Assembly (NCBI GenBank): GCA_963575745.1
Contig: CAUYUJ010000005.1
Location: forward strand, 1-64,000
Reading direction: 5' to 3'
DNA: 64,000 nucleotides
Origin: Prorocentrum cordatum
Taxonomy: Eukaryota
Within the stretch, counting starts at the first letter, position 1, and each line of letters opens with the position of its first letter. The position numbers and the translations under genes are program-made. Positions 43,401 through 49,400 of the stretch are shown here, in pieces. The notes under the pieces are model-generated. The model ran no database searches. It saw nothing but the letters and a program-made list of their open reading frames with translations, and was not told the origin of the DNA.

Positions 43401-46400
43401 ACACGCCGTGGCATTACCATTTGATATGATACGCCCGCGCGGCGAGCCCAAATCATCATGGCCAATCATTGTGCCACTTTGGGGTTCGGGGCGGCAAGCA
43501 CTTGTTCGGTTCCGACTGAGCGCATGGCTGCATGCCGCGGCTACTTAGCGTCGCGCAGCCATGCGCTCCAACAAACTAGCGCTCCGTGGCGCGGGCACGA
43601 GGTGCGCGCAGGCTCGTCTCTGCCATCGCTGGGCTATGGCGGGCCAAGTGCATAGCCGCGCACGGCTTTCCCTGGGCAGCGATTGGCTTGCGCGATCGAT
43701 TGTCCAAGCCGCTTCGAAGCATTGATGAAGTACTGCTGTTCTGGCACCGAGAGCGGGCCATGCTTGCCCGACAGCAGCATTCCCCACATTGCCGCGCTGC
43801 TGCGCTGAGGGTGGGGCTGCGAAGTCTTTAGGCCTAGGCCCTGCAGGGATGCAAACGACACGCGTCGAGTTCTACGCGCATGGGCCACGCGAGTCGCAAA
43901 GCCGTTCCGGACCGCACTTGGGCCAGACACCGACAGCGTTGAGCTGCGGACGCAGGGGTGCCTGGCCCAAGCTTGCTGCTCCCATCGCATGCTTAGTCGT
44001 GCGGAGGAACAGCAAATTATCACTGGGTTTCGCCAGGCGCATGTCGGCGATACCCCGACGGCGTAGCCTTGCGTGTTGTTCCTACTACAGTGGGTCGTCA
44101 GCGTTGTCGTCTTGGGCGAAGCCAGCGACAAGGCCTGTGCTTCTAGTGTTTGTCGACATGGTTTTGCGGTCGTTCGGGGTGCCCGATTCGCCGCGTCGCG
44201 TGACCATCAGCATGCGCGACCGAGAAGGGTCGCGGCGCAGTTTACAGCGTCCAGCGATGGCCACATTCATTCGCTTCAGCGCAGCCCGCGCGAATCCACG
44301 ACGTGACGCGCAATGTAGCGCGCTTGCTAGCTTTGCTTAAGCCAAGGCTAACATATCGTGCCAGAAAATAGAAAGCTGTAATAAACAAGTTAGCGGTGTG
44401 CGCTTAACCAACTATGCGCTCTCACAAGAAAGGCCACTTGCTGCACGGACGCGCGTCGCGCGTACAGGCGCCACGCGTATGGCGCATTCGAGGCACAGCG
44501 CAGCGCCAGTATACATTGCAGTGCATACAGCACGCGCGCTGGGCATGAGCACACACCAACGAATGTCGCTGGCTGGCGAGACCCCCCCAAAAGGGCCTCT
44601 GCAAGGGTTCCTGGGCTCTCAAGGTTCACGTGGTTGCTAATCGCATGTTGCTGTCGCTTGTCCGCGCTGCGCTAAGTGCTATGTTTTCCCGAGGATGCAT
44701 GCGCCAACGTTCGCAATGATGGGGTAGATTGTCTAAGCGTGTTGTTTCTGAGGGCTCTCGCAGTTGGTCTCTTTCAAGAAAGCCCTAAGGCGGCGCGTCC
44801 GCACTCTGACTTGGTTGCTCGAATGTAGAGAAAAGCGGTTTCACGCCGTCTTCTCGCGACCGCGGCGTTCGAGGCCGCGGCGCCACATCTGACGACCCAG
44901 TGTGGCGTTGAGGCCCCGACCGCCGCGTTGTCCGGGACGGGCGACGTGAAACCGCGAAAGCAGTGGCCAGTCGGTGCCAGGGCGTTTTTTTGTTGTTGTT
45001 GTTGTTGTTTTTTTCTCTGCCTTTCTCGTGGCCTATTGGGGTCTCTCGGGGCCTATCTCAAAAACTGTTCGGCGGGAGTATCTGTCGTGCTCGGGGCTTG
45101 TTGTTTGGAAAGGCCGCAAGTTTCCCCCAGGGCTCAGGCGGGCGGAAACCAATGAAATGTCCAGCGGCATGGGCGTCATTATGACCACGCGATCCGTGAG
45201 AGCAACCTTTGGATTTGGAATTCTCCATTCGCTTCCGCATCGTAGCCATTCTGATTCAGGGCTGTTTTCTCGACGCACCTTGCGGCCCAGGGTGAGGTGC
45301 GCATTTCTTCACTTCGCGGAGCGCCCTTCAGCAACCATGTCCGTCTCTGGAGACGACGTTGACGCAGCGGAGATGCGGCCTCCTCCAGCCCCGCCAGCGG
45401 CTCGCAGGAGGAGTTCTGTCAACGACCATGCTGCTCACACCAAGGCCGAGTTAGCAGGCGCATGCTACTTATGCCAGGAGCCGTTGCGCCCTAAGGCCAA
45501 CACCAAGAAATGGCACGGCTACGTCTTCCACGCTAGCCCGTGCTGGAACAACATTCGGGCTCGCCAGGGCGTCTGCAGTGCCACCCAGAACGGCCTCAGG
45601 CGCGAGCTCGAGTTGATGCACTGCGATCCTGAGAAGTGGCGCTGCGAGGCGATGCAGTTCGATCGGGCTCACTTTGATAGCAACCGATCGCATGCGCGCG
45701 AAGCTCTGACGAAGCAGCTTGCAGACTACGAGCTCGAGCTGCAGCGCAAGGCTGAGCTGACCTTGAATGACGCCGCGAAGTACACCAAGGCACAGTACAA
45801 GAAGGCGAAGTTGAGGGACATGGATTCGGACGAGGCGAGCGCTGAGTGGGACAGTGAGTACGCAGAGCACCCGACGGTCAACAAGAAGGGCGAGAAGTGC
45901 ATTGCCATTGAGGGCCCCGATGTGACCAGGAAGTTGGAGGGGACGGAGCGCCGGGGCGTGAAGCGAGGTCTGATCGAGTCGGCGCCCGGAACCTCCTCTT
46001 GGGGCTCAGGGGCGGCGTCTTCTGGTGGCGATGGGGCTAGTCCAGCTTCGGGGCGAACTGGCGGCAAGATCGGCGCCAACCTGACGGAGGTGAACATCCA
46101 GCGCCTCACGGATGCATTCAATGAGATTGGAGAGGATGACGTTATCTCAGTGGTGAGCACGCGCTCTCGCGGTTCACGCGGCGCCCGCTTGGCGTCGCAG
46201 CTGCAGCCGCCGCAGGGCTTCCTGGCGCAGAAGGATAACATCAGCAACGCGCTTCGGGAGATCGTCTCAAGCATCGACGGCGGCAAGAAGGAGGCCGGCG
46301 CGATCAAGAAGCTCCAGGCGCTGCACACCAAGGTCGTGGAGAAGAACATTGGGGTGGGAGGTCTACCTCATGACGTCAGCACGGTGGTCAGCGACCTCTC

Positions 46401-49400
46401 TCGCGTGAGCTCGTTGTCCAAAGGCGAGCTCGAGAAGATCGGCCCCGCCAAGGTGGATGAAGTTCCATCTCTCGAGGAGGCGCTAACGACCATCCAGAAC
46501 CAGAAGTCCACGTTCTTCGAGCAGGTGCAAACTCTCACGGGTCAGCTGCATTTCAAGCTCCAGAAGTCTTGCTCTGAACAGAGGTCCGAATGCCAGAAGA
46601 ACCGCTGGGAGAAGACGAAGGCCCAACATATGCTCAGCAAAGGAGGCTTTGGCCTGAACTTGTCCAAGTGGGCGTCGGAGCAGATCCACAGCACGGCTAG
46701 TTTCAGGCGTGATCTGTTTGTGTGAGAAGGCGCAGCTCAACCCCGAGGACGGTTCCTTCGACGTGGCCAAGCTGGCTCTCTTCACGGGCGAGAGCCCCAA
46801 CGAAGACTGCCAGTCGCATGCTGCATGGTGGGCCATGAAGCTGCTGCTGGACGATGCCGCGAATGTCTTCATCGACAGCAAGATCACGAGCATGAAGGCT
46901 GAGATGGCCAACCACCCGCTGTGGCCAGGTGCGATGGGGAGGGTGCCAGGTTGCTTCGCAAACGTCGACGCGGTCGCCACCTTGTGCGCGCAGAACACTA
47001 AGGAGAAGGGCTCGGAGTGCTGGCTTCTGTGTTCGAGAGCTGGCGTCTATCGCATTGGTCCTCAGAGCGTGCCCATGCCAGGCACGCCATCGATCATTGT
47101 CGCCATGGACAAGCCGCTCTTGGTCCACGCCGTGCGCATGAAGGACTTCTTGAGCCAGGGCATCGCCGTGAACAACTACGAGCAGTTCCTCGCGACAGCG
47201 ACGGGAGCAGACGTCATCAAGCAATCAGCGTTGGTGATCGTCAACCCAGGGGACAGCTTGTACGTTCCCACGGCGTGGTGGTGGTCCTTGACGGTGCTCG
47301 CGGGGCTCCGCGACACGGTTGCACAAGACGAGCCGAGGGCGACAGGGCCACCGAAGGCGAAGGCGAAGACTTCCGCGACGGCTCCAGCTCCAGGTCAGGA
47401 CACGGTCGGCATGGCCACGGTGGTGCCAGTCTACTCCCCGTCGCTTTGGGGCACGCCCAGAGCAATGAGCAGGGAGCGATCGTCGCTCTGAACAGGGCCC
47501 ACTTCGACACGAAGAAGGGTCGGGCGATGCGGGATGAGCGTGCCACGGCATCCGGGAAAATGTTTGCCACCTAGTCGGGGAGATGGAGCTTCGAACCTAA
47601 CGAGGCCCATGGCTGCGCGCTCCGGGTCAACGCGTGGCGGTCCCAGCTGGTGGCGCGGAGATAGATGCGAGGCCCTTGCAAGCTCAGGATGGAGTGTTCC
47701 ATCAGACCTGGGCGCCCGAGATCCGTTCATCAGGGCGATCGCCGTGGCATTTCATTCATTACCCTCCCCACCTCATCATGCCAATGTGTTGTTGCATATG
47801 TGGAGCTCCGCTCTATGCACCCTGATGTTTATAATATCTGGATCTTCGCTCTCTGCACCCTGATGTTTACTATTCCCAGAGCTTCGCTCTCAGCGCGCCT
47901 GGTGTTAAGTATATCTGGGGCTTCACTCTGTAAAGCTTGATTGCATGTCGAATGGTATTCTGGTGCGCCATGCCATTCGACATCCATGTGACGGGTTGTT
48001 GGGTCCGCATGGCCTTTCAGGGGCGCCTTCGGGGCCCGCGCCCTCGCGGGCAAGGGATGGGGCGGGAGGGCGGGCGCGATATAAGACAACTACGTTGGGA
48101 TCTGGGGAGGCAGGGGGCGAGGGGTACAGAGGGGCACGGGGTAGAAGGTCGGAAGAACGAACGAGGACGGGGGCGTGATATTTGGGCGGGAGGGCGGAAC
48201 GATCGCCCGTAGGACGTGCGCTGGAGGCGCGGGGATGGCGGGGGAGGGCGGTCGCGCGGGAGGGGGGCGCGCAGCCGTCACTGACGGCTGTCGTGATCGA
48301 GTTCGGCTTTGCCACTGCGGCGTCCGAGCCGTTTGCTGGGCGAACCGCCCGCGTGCACTCATGGTCCAGCGACGCGCCCGTCGCGCGGAACGAGCGGCCA
48401 GATGCCGTGGCCGCGTCGCAACGCATGGCCGTCGTTCACGCGCCGCGGGCGCATTGGCGGACTTTGGGTGCGAGCGCGGGGCACGTCCAGCAAACGACGC
48501 ACGTGCCGAGGTGGCGGCGCCAGACTCGATCGCGAGTGCTGAAAGTGAATGCTGTCCTGCGTGGCGCGCTTGAGGGTGCTTACGTTGACAACGCGGCCGC
48601 GCTGCGCGTCCCATTAGAGCGCGCTATCGCGAGCGCGGGCCTGCGTCAGAAGGCGTTCGGATGTTCGATGCGCTGATCTTGGCGTTACGGGTTCGTTCGC
48701 CTCGCCGCGCAATCGCAAATTGACGACTCGTTCGGTCGTTCGGGCGTGGGCGCGCGATGCGTGCGCGTCACCACTTGCGATTAGCATTGCGTCGGCGCGT
48801 GCGCTATTCGATGTAAACGTGAATGAAATAAAACATAGAAATGACAACGAACACACCGCCGAACTATGCGGCTTGGCAGTGTGTTACCCTTTTCTGTAGA
48901 AGTTACATGATGTGTTGAGCGTTTCTGTAGCAGATGGTTGCTTGCCAGCGCTTTGACCGTAAGTCCGCGCCTTGCCAACCAAGGCCGCGCATCTCACCGG
49001 GCAGGCGCGACAGCGCCCCGACGTCCTCGAAGGCCTGCGCCGTCCTTCCCGCAGATACTTAGAGCTGCCAGACGTTCGCGCTGTACGACTCTCTCGCCGA
49101 CAGAATCTGTGGGCAACCGGCCAGGCTGCGCCCGCAGCCTGGGCGTCTGATGGGTCCCTCGGAGCCCTGCCGACGTCCAGCAGATCCACCTCGGCGTCGT
49201 CGCGTTCGACGCCCGCTAGTTCATCGGCGAGCATTGGAAGGGAGCTCGCGTCATCCAGTTTCTCTTTGGTGATGAGCCGTCATTGCTGTCAGATTCCGGA
49301 CAGGGCGTGGGCAGAACGTTCGATGATTGTGTCATCGACTTTCCCGAGGACGCCGCCAGCACCATCGAAGGTGGATCGCCGCCGGCCCTGTCGGCTATGC

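What the first reader, a model, noticed from the sequence alone, without database searches (positions are those of the whole stretch)
45337..47574. Transposon-borne Zn-finger / coiled-coil / JmjC-like protein lacking the distal metal His: candidate anti-silencing factor
Seen: CYLC-x18-HASPC at the N-terminus and [18 protein letters not shown] near the C-terminus. JmjC/cupin enzymes have WWH here, and I see no HxD/E motif. Only two frameshifts are evident. Known: plant VANDAL transposons encode VANC anti-silencing proteins that bind short motifs amplified as tandem repeats inside the element. Inference: ORF2 and the TGAAC array could be an analogous, independently evolved pair, with a catalytically dead JmjC-like fold acting as a reader of modified bases or histones.
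Basis: inference. Interest (0 to 1): 0.75.

Follow-up and report, generated by a model that had tools for sequence, protein, structure and literature searches.

The report
Dead JmjC-fold gene in dinoflagellate element
This is a slightly broken copy of a dinoflagellate repeat-element gene whose protein ends in a histone-demethylase-like (JmjC) fold without metal-binding residues; here and in one distant relative it sits behind a transposase-like gene and a phased short-motif array.

Summary
Both motifs are at the stated places, and the reading frame is broken exactly twice.

The ORF is one copy of a large, unnamed protein family: 222 representatives at E<=1e-3, and the only named ones are from Prorocentrum cordatum.

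A confident AlphaFold model of the C-terminal part (pLDDT 86.6) matches only JmjC-type oxygenases at the top (PHF2 Z 12.0, KDM2A, JMJD5, TYW5, FIH). The Fe(II) triad is missing in the whole family: 0 of 127 sequences have His at the distal site, and no column is a conserved His, Asp or Glu.

The order [quoted passage not shown] recurs with both genes intact on a distant metagenome contig, L001.

A relic dinoflagellate spliced leader lies just upstream of ORF2 in both lineages. This marks ORF2 as an expressed gene copied back from cDNA.

Fold, dead active site and element linkage are supported. DNA binding and anti-silencing are untested. ORF1's transposase identity rests on motifs only, and no element termini were defined.

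The parts
31653..35582 (+). ORF1: transposase-like gene (relatives 1050-1430 aa). In the window it is broken by at least 6 frame changes (frames 3>1>2>1>2>1>3).
   Evidence: tblastn with P0176/P0177/P0179/P0181/P0182. The family alignment A3 has invariant DASPQW (D303), TTDxGxER (D385), AEWRW, CxCH...C, HHRV and DDxxAExPH (E727). There are no Pfam hits.
36435..39009 (+). First block of a tandem array. The unit is 129 nt and carries about four TGAAC[CT]AC motifs at 10-11-nt spacing.
40072..42951 (+). Second block of the same 129-nt array.
45240..45260 (+). Relic dinoflagellate spliced leader (TCGTAGCCATTCTGATTCAGG, 16 of 21 identical to DinoSL), 77 nt upstream of the ORF2 ATG.
   Evidence: it is the only hit in the window at <=5 mismatches, and shuffles gave a mean of 0.07 hits. 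The DinoSL sequence was checked in PMC6050394.
45337..46701 (+). ORF2 part A (frame 1): N-terminal C2HC motif, acidic/basic linker and coiled-coil region.
   Evidence: The profile of the helical part matches coiled-coil chains.
45463..45543 (+). CYLC-x18-HASPC, a C2HC zinc-finger-like motif. It is conserved in most relatives as C-x2-C-x(8-18)-FH-x3-C-xNAVR. The L001 copy has only the first Cys of the CxxC pair.
46694..46712 (+). First frameshift zone (frame 1 to 2), in a variable linker.
   Evidence: the X3 contig diverges just before 46706.
46712..47453 (+). ORF2 part B (frame 2): JmjC-fold domain without an Fe(II) triad.
   Evidence: AF2 model pLDDT 86.6, pTM 0.85.
47243..47296 (+). [18 protein letters not shown], the cupin strands VI-VII motif, with W where JmjC enzymes have the distal His.
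47437..47473 (+). Second frameshift zone (frame 2 to 1). The window lacks one base that a sister copy has behind 47453.
47454..47574 (+). ORF2 part C (frame 1): conserved C-terminal tail (A...N..H......W..R), then the stop.

Best explanation
What it is. Window 45337-47574 is a lightly degraded copy (two 1-nt-type frameshifts) of the second gene of a two-gene, multi-copy genomic element of dinoflagellates. The window is most likely from Prorocentrum cordatum or a close relative.

Gene 1 (31653-35582) encodes a large protein with a D..D..E signature and Cys/His clusters. It is probably a DDE transposase with hAT-like spacing.

Between the genes lies an array of GAAC(C/T)A-type motifs phased at 10-11 nt.

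Gene 2 encodes a protein of about 745 aa. It has an N-terminal C2HC zinc-finger-like module, a charged linker, a coiled coil, and a C-terminal JmjC-fold domain that has no Fe(II)-binding triad.

How it most likely works (inferred). ORF2 is a non-enzymatic accessory factor of the element. The coiled coil makes it oligomeric. The zinc module, or ORF1, recognises the phased motifs. The dead JmjC fold serves as a binding surface for a protein or chromatin partner.

Origin. ORF2 has its own mRNA, and a spliced-leader-tagged cDNA of it was written back into the element's ancestor or into its copies.

Shown: gene structure, family, fold, absence of the triad, conserved gene order, array and spliced-leader relic.
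Inferred: transposase activity, DNA binding, oligomerisation and partner binding.
For: Gene and family:
- One colinear gene with two frame changes.
- 222 family representatives at E<=1e-3 of 1.84 billion searched, 22 of them at <=1e-10.
- The named relatives are P. cordatum proteins.

Fold:
- AF2 model pLDDT 86.6, pTM 0.85.
- VIA-align top 9 rows are all JmjC-type: PHF2 Z 12.0 (214 aligned, 3.9 A), KDM2A 11.0, JMJD5 10.8, TYW5 10.5, FIH 10.4, KDM7A, JHDM1A, JMJD7, JMJD6.
- Every Foldseek row shown is a JmjC protein, best E 5e-7.
- ESM features are nearest to JmjC/Cupin_8 clusters at 0.93.

Dead site:
- No H.[DE] in the domain.
- 0 of 127 sequences have His in the distal-His column. The highest His share of any core column is 28 of 128. 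The near-invariant residues are G, W, R, P and T only.

Linkage:
- L001 (9945 nt) carries an intact ORF1 relative (1311 aa, 1645-5580) and an intact ORF2 relative (735 aa, 7341-9548) on the same strand.
- That ORF2 relative is colinear end to end with P0154 at 24% identity, E 5e-34.
- Between the two L001 genes there is an 11-nt phased array with 16 [GA]AAACCA copies plus GGAACCA variants.
- Five inverted copies lie next to a sharp boundary where L001 and L002 stop being alike.
- P0177 (ORF1 family) and P0153 (ORF2 family) each have a single ENA contig of exactly 8444 nt.

Multi-copy state: run X1 gave 32 contigs at 90-99% identity to this stretch.

Spliced-leader relic upstream of ORF2 in the window (16 of 21) and in L001/L002 (19 of 21).
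Against: ORF1's transposase identity is weak:
- It has no meaningful Pfam hit in 9 family members scanned even at E<=5: three showed one weak chance-level hit each (MazE-like, SOCS), and P0183's Asp/TAXi_N hits lie in its fused protease part.
- It has no PDB sequence hit.
- Its AF2 model is unusable (pLDDT 42).
- The hAT families among its ESM neighbours score only 0.80-0.83, which is lead level.

Mobility is not shown:
- No terminal inverted repeats or target-site duplications were found. No inverted partner of the L001 left end lies within the 400 nt after ORF2.
- The window has no inverted motif cluster upstream of ORF1.
- In L001 the inverted motif copies bracket ORF1 alone, so ORF2 could lie outside a minimal mobile unit.

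Other explanations for copy number and linkage:
- The spliced-leader relic means ORF2 copies can arise by retroposition without any transposase.
- Only two independent lineages show the linkage directly. Most relatives sit on 2.5-6 kb contigs that hold one gene only.

Both window genes are frameshifted, so this copy is probably dead.
Confidence: 0.6

Rival explanations
1. ORF2 is a sequence-specific anti-silencing factor. It binds the GAAC(C/T)A array of its own element, and its dead JmjC fold blocks or reads a repressive mark. This would be analogous to VANC of VANDAL elements, or to the non-enzymatic action of fission-yeast Epe1.
For: - The array lies inside the unit, is phased at about one helical turn, and recurs with a related core in a lineage whose proteins are only 24-32% identical.
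- ORF2 has a zinc-finger-like module and a coiled coil.
- JmjC proteins acting without catalysis against silencing are documented for Epe1 (PMC7192584, abstract seen in the listing).
- VANC binds motifs in non-coding regions of its own TEs (PMC5735166 and PMC10398659, abstracts seen).
Against: - No binding or silencing data exist.
- The motif could equally be the transposase's own subterminal binding site.
- The CxxC pair of the zinc motif is incomplete in the L001 copy.
- Dinoflagellate chromatin is packaged mainly by non-histone proteins (abstracts of PMC4751559 and PMC11071213), which lowers the prior for a histone-mark reader.
- There is no sequence or fold relation to VANC.
Confidence: 0.18
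2. ORF2 (and ORF1) are ordinary multi-copy host genes of dinoflagellates. They spread by cDNA retroposition and tandem duplication, and the ORF1-array-ORF2 order is a conserved gene pair, not a mobile unit.
For: - The DinoSL relic upstream of ORF2 meets the published retrogene criterion.
- Many full-length relatives sit alone on transcript-sized contigs.
- No TIR or TSD was found.
- Dinoflagellate genes commonly occur in unidirectional multi-copy arrays (abstracts of PMC7245778 and PMC11071213).
Against: - ORF1 has an invariant D..D..E pattern with hAT-like spacing, and hAT families are among its ESM neighbours.
- L001 and L002 share a sharp left boundary with unrelated flanks and inverted motif copies beside it.
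- The window copy carries at least 8 frameshifts over the two genes. Of the 40 listed substitutions against sister copies (out of 100), only 6 fall on third codon positions. This is decay, as expected of element copies, not of needed host genes.
Confidence: 0.17
3. The C-terminal domain is still an active 2OG/Fe(II) or other metal-dependent oxygenase that uses non-canonical ligands.
For: The fold is that of JmjC oxygenases. One Arg (R132, 118 of 128) and one Asp (D173, 93 of 128) are conserved.
Against: No His, Asp or Glu column is conserved in the beta-core. The distal-His column has 0 of 127 His, and no HxD/E exists in the window copy. D173 lies in the helical insert by the model's secondary structure.
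Confidence: 0.03

Closest known systems
JmjC-domain 2OG oxygenases (PHF2, KDM2A, JMJD5, TYW5, FIH)
   Same: Same double-stranded beta-helix with a helical insert. They are the top structural matches (Z 10.4-12.0, 178-214 residues aligned). The strand VI-VII motif GDxLYxPxxWW is shared.
   Different: The sequence is below every Pfam threshold. The HxD/E...H iron triad is absent family-wide. The domain is fused to a C2HC module and a coiled coil, and is encoded beside a transposase-like gene.
Non-enzymatic JmjC proteins such as S. pombe Epe1
   Same: A JmjC fold used without demonstrated demethylase chemistry, opposing heterochromatin (PMC7192584 and PMC6317313, abstracts seen).
   Different: Epe1 is a host gene. 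No relation beyond the fold was tested here, and any function of ORF2 in silencing is unproven.
VANC anti-silencing proteins of Arabidopsis VANDAL (Mutator-like) transposons
   Same: An accessory protein encoded by the element, together with short motifs amplified in non-coding parts of the same element (PMC5735166 and PMC10398659, abstracts seen).
   Different: There is no fold or sequence relation, the host kingdom and transposase type differ, and binding and loss of silencing are not shown here.
Fungal DNA transposons that captured TET/JBP dioxygenases
   Same: DNA transposons of several superfamilies, hAT included, carry a second gene of the 2OG-oxygenase fold class that is thought to help them escape silencing (PMC12730594, abstract and outline read).
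   Different: Those are TET/JBP enzymes presumed active on 5mC. Here the fold is of the JmjC branch, the catalytic residues are gone, and the host is a dinoflagellate.
Subterminal or internal repeat-binding systems of Ac (hAT) and En/Spm (TnpA)
   Same: Many copies of a short motif near element ends or inside the element are bound by an element-encoded protein (recalled knowledge, not from a call).
   Different: Here the array is hundreds to thousands of bases long, lies between the two genes, and its binding protein is unknown.
Dinoflagellate retrogenes tagged by DinoSL relics
   Same: A relic spliced leader lies 77 nt upstream of the start codon, inside the -50 to -100 zone described for retrogenes (PMC6050394, passages read).
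   Different: The tagged gene is part of a conserved two-gene unit with a motif array, not a lone retrocopy.

Membership tests
JmjC / Cupin_8 oxygenases (Pfam PF02373, PF13621) | Double-stranded beta-helix fold of the JmjC type | tested here: met
   AF2 model pLDDT 86.6. VIA-align top 9 rows are all JmjC-type, Z 9.9-12.0. Foldseek best E 5e-7, and all listed rows are JmjC proteins.
JmjC / Cupin_8 oxygenases (Pfam PF02373, PF13621) | Sequence match above the curated Pfam threshold | tested here: not met
   The window piece scores Cupin_8 16.2 bits against a cut-off of 27.4, over 27 residues, with no JmjC hit. Of 26 relatives scanned, 1 had Cupin_8 at 18.2 bits and none was above the cut-off.
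JmjC / Cupin_8 oxygenases (Pfam PF02373, PF13621) | Fe(II) facial triad HxD/E...H | tested here: not met
   There is no H.[DE] in the 277-aa piece. The distal-His column has 0 of 127 His, and no conserved His/Asp/Glu column occurs in the beta-core of 128 sequences.
JmjC / Cupin_8 oxygenases (Pfam PF02373, PF13621) | 2-oxoglutarate-binding residues | not testable with these tools
   No residue-level superposition was available. R132 (118 of 128) is a candidate only by its place in the strand order.
VANC-type anti-silencing system | Accessory protein encoded inside the transposon | tested here: inconclusive
   Linkage to ORF1 is seen in the window and in L001/L002, but the element ends are not defined.
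VANC-type anti-silencing system | Short target motifs arrayed in non-coding parts of the same element | tested here: met
   177 motifs in the window. L001 has 16 or more direct and 5 inverted copies.
VANC-type anti-silencing system | Protein binds the motifs and removes silencing marks | not testable with these tools
   This needs EMSA or DAP-seq and in vivo assays.
hAT superfamily transposase (ORF1) | Sequence match to the hAT RNase-H-like or dimerisation domains | tested here: not met
   No Pfam hit to any transposase family in 9 family members at E<=5. No PDB sequence hit.
hAT superfamily transposase (ORF1) | DDE triad with a long insertion between the second D and the E | tested here: inconclusive
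   D303, D385 and E727 are invariant in 7 sequences, with spacings of 82 and 342 residues. The assignment as catalytic residues is by pattern only. hAT families are ESM neighbours at 0.80-0.83. The AF2 model is too poor to test the fold.
hAT superfamily transposase (ORF1) | Short TIRs and 8-bp target-site duplications | tested here: inconclusive
   Only a left boundary is seen (L001:731 / L002:127). No right end lies on the contig. No TIR was recognised in the window.
Dinoflagellate retrogene | DinoSL relic upstream of the coding sequence | tested here: met
   Window 45240-45260 (16 of 21) and L001 6729-6749 (19 of 21). Shuffles gave a mean of 0.07 hits. The criterion is from PMC6050394.

The most novel reading that the evidence does not exclude
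Dinoflagellates carry an undescribed superfamily of DNA transposons with a hAT-like DDE core. Its ancestor captured, as a spliced-leader-tagged cDNA, a JmjC-fold host gene and converted it into a catalytically dead accessory protein. That protein, oligomerised by its coiled coil, coats the element's 11-bp-phased GAAC(C/T)A array. It shields the element from the host's silencing or DNA-modification machinery, in a nucleus that is nearly histone-free and rich in 5-hydroxymethyluracil.
Probability: 0.15. Interest if true: 0.8.

Novelty: new variant of a known kind. Interest (0 to 1): 0.6.

Why it matters
Dinoflagellate genomes are huge and repeat-rich, and their mobile elements and silencing systems are poorly characterised. 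This finding does three things:
- It assigns a fold to a large unnamed protein family (222 representative clusters).
- It shows that the family is a pseudo-enzyme of the JmjC class.
- It ties the family to a transposase-like partner gene and a phased DNA motif array.

Together these give a concrete, testable candidate for a transposon accessory or counter-silencing factor in dinoflagellates. They also provide a second example, besides the fungal TET/JBP captures, of mobile DNA recruiting a 2OG-oxygenase-fold gene. If ORF1 proves to be a transposase, the pair defines a new two-gene element type for annotating dinoflagellate genomes.

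Tried and rejected
- No whole genome is held for the window, so copies, ends and target-site duplications could not be collected.
- The search of earlier findings returned nothing for this genome.
- The search for related loci with the family alignment A1 failed because no stretch was conserved enough. I then used the single protein P0182.
- The profile of A2 against PDB sequences gave only coiled-coil matches from the helical region and no JmjC chain.
- The profile of A3 (ORF1) against PDB gave nothing meaningful (best E 3.3).
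- The ORF1 AlphaFold model from 7 sequences was unusable (pLDDT 42), so no fold search was run on it.
- Pfam found nothing for the other ORFs of the window's element region or of L001.
- No RNA holder was listed for the stretch. The three runs laid were contigs only, so expression of this copy is untested.
- X1's listed pieces leave 46695-46776 uncovered, so the first frameshift could not be compared with that sister copy.
- The BFVD viral library gave only weaker cupin/JmjC matches (best E 1.2e-5) and no sign of a viral origin.
- No inverted motif cluster or repeated short motif was found upstream of ORF1 or downstream of ORF2 in the window.
- No reverse-complement match of the L001 left end was found in L001 9540-9945.
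- Literature searches listed no paper describing a transposon-encoded JmjC-fold protein or this dinoflagellate family. These were word searches of the held library only.
- Complex prediction was not used, because no protein-protein binding is claimed.

Full report
**Observation.** The stretch 45337-47574 holds one gene on the + strand, read in three pieces: frame 1 (45337-46725, starts MSVSG), frame 2 (46658-47491) and frame 1 again (47002-47574).
- CYLC-x18-HASPC is at residues 43-69 (nt 45463-45543), and [18 protein letters not shown] is at nt 47243-47296.
- tblastn with intact relatives shows a single colinear gene. P0154 (756 aa) is matched over residues 43-748 at about 50% identity.
- The frame changes at about 46701-46712 and about 47437-47473, there is no other stop, and the window holds only this one copy.
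- The frame-2 piece has no H-x-[DE] and only three His.
- Pfam gives only a sub-threshold Cupin_8 hit over 27 residues (E 0.01, 16.2 bits against 27.4).

**Source and family.** The window is about 60% G+C and full of simple repeats. No genome is held for it.
- The N-terminal piece found one named relative, a partial 571-aa 'unnamed protein product' of Prorocentrum cordatum (E 1.6e-45). It is colinear with all three pieces.
- An exhaustive phmmer search with the frame-2 piece against 1.84 billion representatives gave 222 proteins at E<=1e-3, 22 at <=1e-10 and 3 at <=1e-30.
- Full-length members are 700-830 aa and mostly sit on 2.5-6 kb contigs from ENA, Logan or JGI assemblies, without names.
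- Of 26 members scanned against Pfam at E<=0.01, 23 had nothing and 3 had one sub-threshold hit each. One of those was Cupin_8 at 18.2 bits.
- The alignment shows a conserved plan: C-x2-C-x(8-18)-FH-x3-C-xNAVR; then WR; then LTKxRYK..WD..S..AS; an Arg-rich linker; a long helical region whose profile matches coiled-coil chains; a C-terminal domain; and a tail A...N..H......W..R.

**Fold of the C-terminal domain.** AlphaFold2 on the window's frame-2 piece with 128 aligned relatives gave pLDDT 86.6 and pTM 0.85.
- VIA-align against 48,161 PDB representatives put JmjC-type oxygenases in the first nine rows: PHF2 (Z 12.0, 214 residues, 3.9 A), KDM2A (11.0), JMJD5 (10.8), TYW5 (10.5), FIH (10.4), KDM7A, JHDM1A, JMJD7 and JMJD6. 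Other 2OG oxygenases and small cupins follow. In all, 42 chains reach Z>=8.
- Every Foldseek row shown against the whole PDB is a JmjC protein (FIH best at E 5e-7). TM-scores are modest (0.3-0.45) and identity is about 10%.
- The ESM feature search places an intact relative's domain next to JmjC/Cupin_8 clusters at 0.93.
- The viral library gave weaker hits of the same kind.
The fold claim is well supported. Sequence-level membership is not.

**Active site.** In the 128-sequence alignment, the column that the Cupin_8 match equates with the distal His (W209 of the piece) has 0 of 127 His.
- The highest His share of any core column is 28 of 128.
- The near-invariant residues are W89, G91, G118, W122, R132 (118 of 128), G134, P139, G142, G168, T180, G183, P204 (127 of 127) and G206.
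- The only well-kept acidic column, D173 (93 of 128), falls in the helical insert of the model.
The loss of the iron triad is thus a property of the family, not of this broken copy. From the strand order, R132 sits where JmjC enzymes carry HxD/E. This is an inference, since no residue-level superposition was available.

**Surroundings.** Upstream on the same strand, 31653-35582 encodes a relative of 1050-1430-aa proteins. One is a P. cordatum protein at 88% identity over the 289-aa ORF used as query.
- In the window this gene is broken by at least six frame changes.
- Seven family members share invariant DASPQW (D303), TTDxGxER (D385), AEWRW, CxCH...C, HHRV and DDxxAExPH (E727). The spacings are 82 and 342 residues. 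By recalled knowledge this resembles hAT transposases.
- hAT-related Pfam families appear among ESM neighbours, but only at 0.80-0.83.
- There is no meaningful Pfam hit: three of 9 members had one weak chance-level hit each, and P0183's aspartyl-protease hits lie in its fused part. There is no PDB sequence hit, and the structure model failed (pLDDT 42).
- Between the two genes lie two blocks (36435-39009 and 40072-42951) of a 129-nt unit. They carry 177 TGAAC[CT]A[CG] motifs in all, every one on the + strand. The commonest spacings are 11 nt (43 times) and 10 nt (32 times). About 4 per strand would be expected by chance for the relaxed 7-mer.

**Independent lineage.** A search with the ORF1 relative P0182 fetched two metagenome contigs.
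- L001 (9945 nt) has an intact ORF1 relative (1311 aa, 1645-5580) followed on the same strand by an intact 735-aa ORF (7341-9548). That ORF is matched by the ORF2 family (best E 4.6e-58) and is colinear end to end with P0154 at 24% identity.
- Between the genes, 5903-6149 is a 22-nt (11-nt sub-period) array with 16 [GA]AAACCA copies plus GGAACCA variants. It shares the core GAACCA with the window's motif.
- Five inverted copies (TGGTTTC) lie at 744-841, just inside the point (L001:731 / L002:127) where the 98%-identical contigs L001 and L002 stop being alike.
- P0177 (ORF1 family) and P0153 (an ORF2-family fragment) each occur on one ENA contig of exactly 8444 nt. This suggests a third linked case, which I could not open.

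**Spliced-leader relic.** The DinoSL core occurs once in the window, at 45240-45260 (16 of 21 identical), 77 nt before the ORF2 start. It occurs once each in L001 and L002 (19 of 21), between the array and ORF2. None precedes ORF1. Thirty shuffles gave a mean of 0.07 hits.
- The leader sequence, its use as a retrogene tag, and the -50 to -100 zone were read in passages of PMC6050394.
- This shows that both lineages are dinoflagellate. It also shows that ORF2 is or was trans-spliced as its own mRNA, and that a cDNA copy entered the unit.

**State of this copy.** Public run X1 gave 32 contigs at 90-99% identity, which indicates many copies.
- One contig has an extra C behind 47453, which mends the second frameshift.
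- The first frameshift lies where an X3 contig diverges.
- Of the 40 listed substitutions (out of 100) in the frame-1 part, 19, 15 and 6 fall on codon positions 1, 2 and 3. This gives no sign of purifying selection between copies, but the list is partial.
- No RNA run was available.

**Interpretation.** The best-supported reading is a two-gene dinoflagellate element in which ORF2 is a non-catalytic accessory protein with a JmjC-fold binding domain.
- Whether ORF2 or ORF1 binds the phased motifs, and whether ORF2 counters silencing, is open.
- The nearest precedents are VANC, Epe1 and the fungal TET/JBP-carrying transposons (abstracts seen). All are analogies, not relatives.
- The main rival is a multi-copy host gene pair spread by retroposition.
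- My word searches listed no description of a transposon-encoded JmjC-fold protein or of this family.

Noticed in passing
window 45240-45260; L001 6729-6749; L002 6271-6291: A relic dinoflagellate spliced leader lies upstream of ORF2 in both lineages and none lies upstream of ORF1. In L001 it is about 590 nt before the start codon, with a (TATAC)n microsatellite (7014-7256) in between.
   Followed up: yes
L001 1909-1942 and 9558-9591: An exact 34-nt direct repeat. One copy is inside the 5' part of the ORF1 relative and the other begins 10 nt after the stop of the ORF2 relative. Its meaning is unknown.
   Followed up: no
L001 1084-1624 (L002 about 477-1227): A 189-nt tandem repeat directly upstream of the ORF1 relative. 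The alignment between the two 98%-identical contigs is offset across it, suggesting a different layout or copy number.
   Followed up: no
protein P0183 (P. cordatum gene model, 1315 aa): A gene model fuses an aspartyl-protease domain (Pfam Asp, E 9.8e-18) to an ORF1-family body. This is probably an element copy inserted beside a protease gene, or a chimeric annotation.
   Followed up: no
window 52317-54086: A 90-nt (180/361-nt higher-order) tandem array with an open reading frame across many units, giving His/Pro/Arg-rich repeats. It is unrelated to the TGAAC array.
   Followed up: no
window 22965-23064: A run of 100 N (an assembly gap) inside long simple-sequence tracts. Large parts of 1-8 kb, 14-15 kb and 21-25 kb are trinucleotide-type low-complexity sequence.
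   Followed up: no
window 39009-40072: About 1.06 kb of non-array, G+C-rich sequence splits the 129-nt array into two blocks. ORFs there have no Pfam match. It could be an insertion into the array.
   Followed up: partly
window 56228-56397 and 58026-58195: A 170-nt direct repeat at 92% identity, 1.8 kb apart, flanked by inverted GGA/TCC simple repeats.
   Followed up: no
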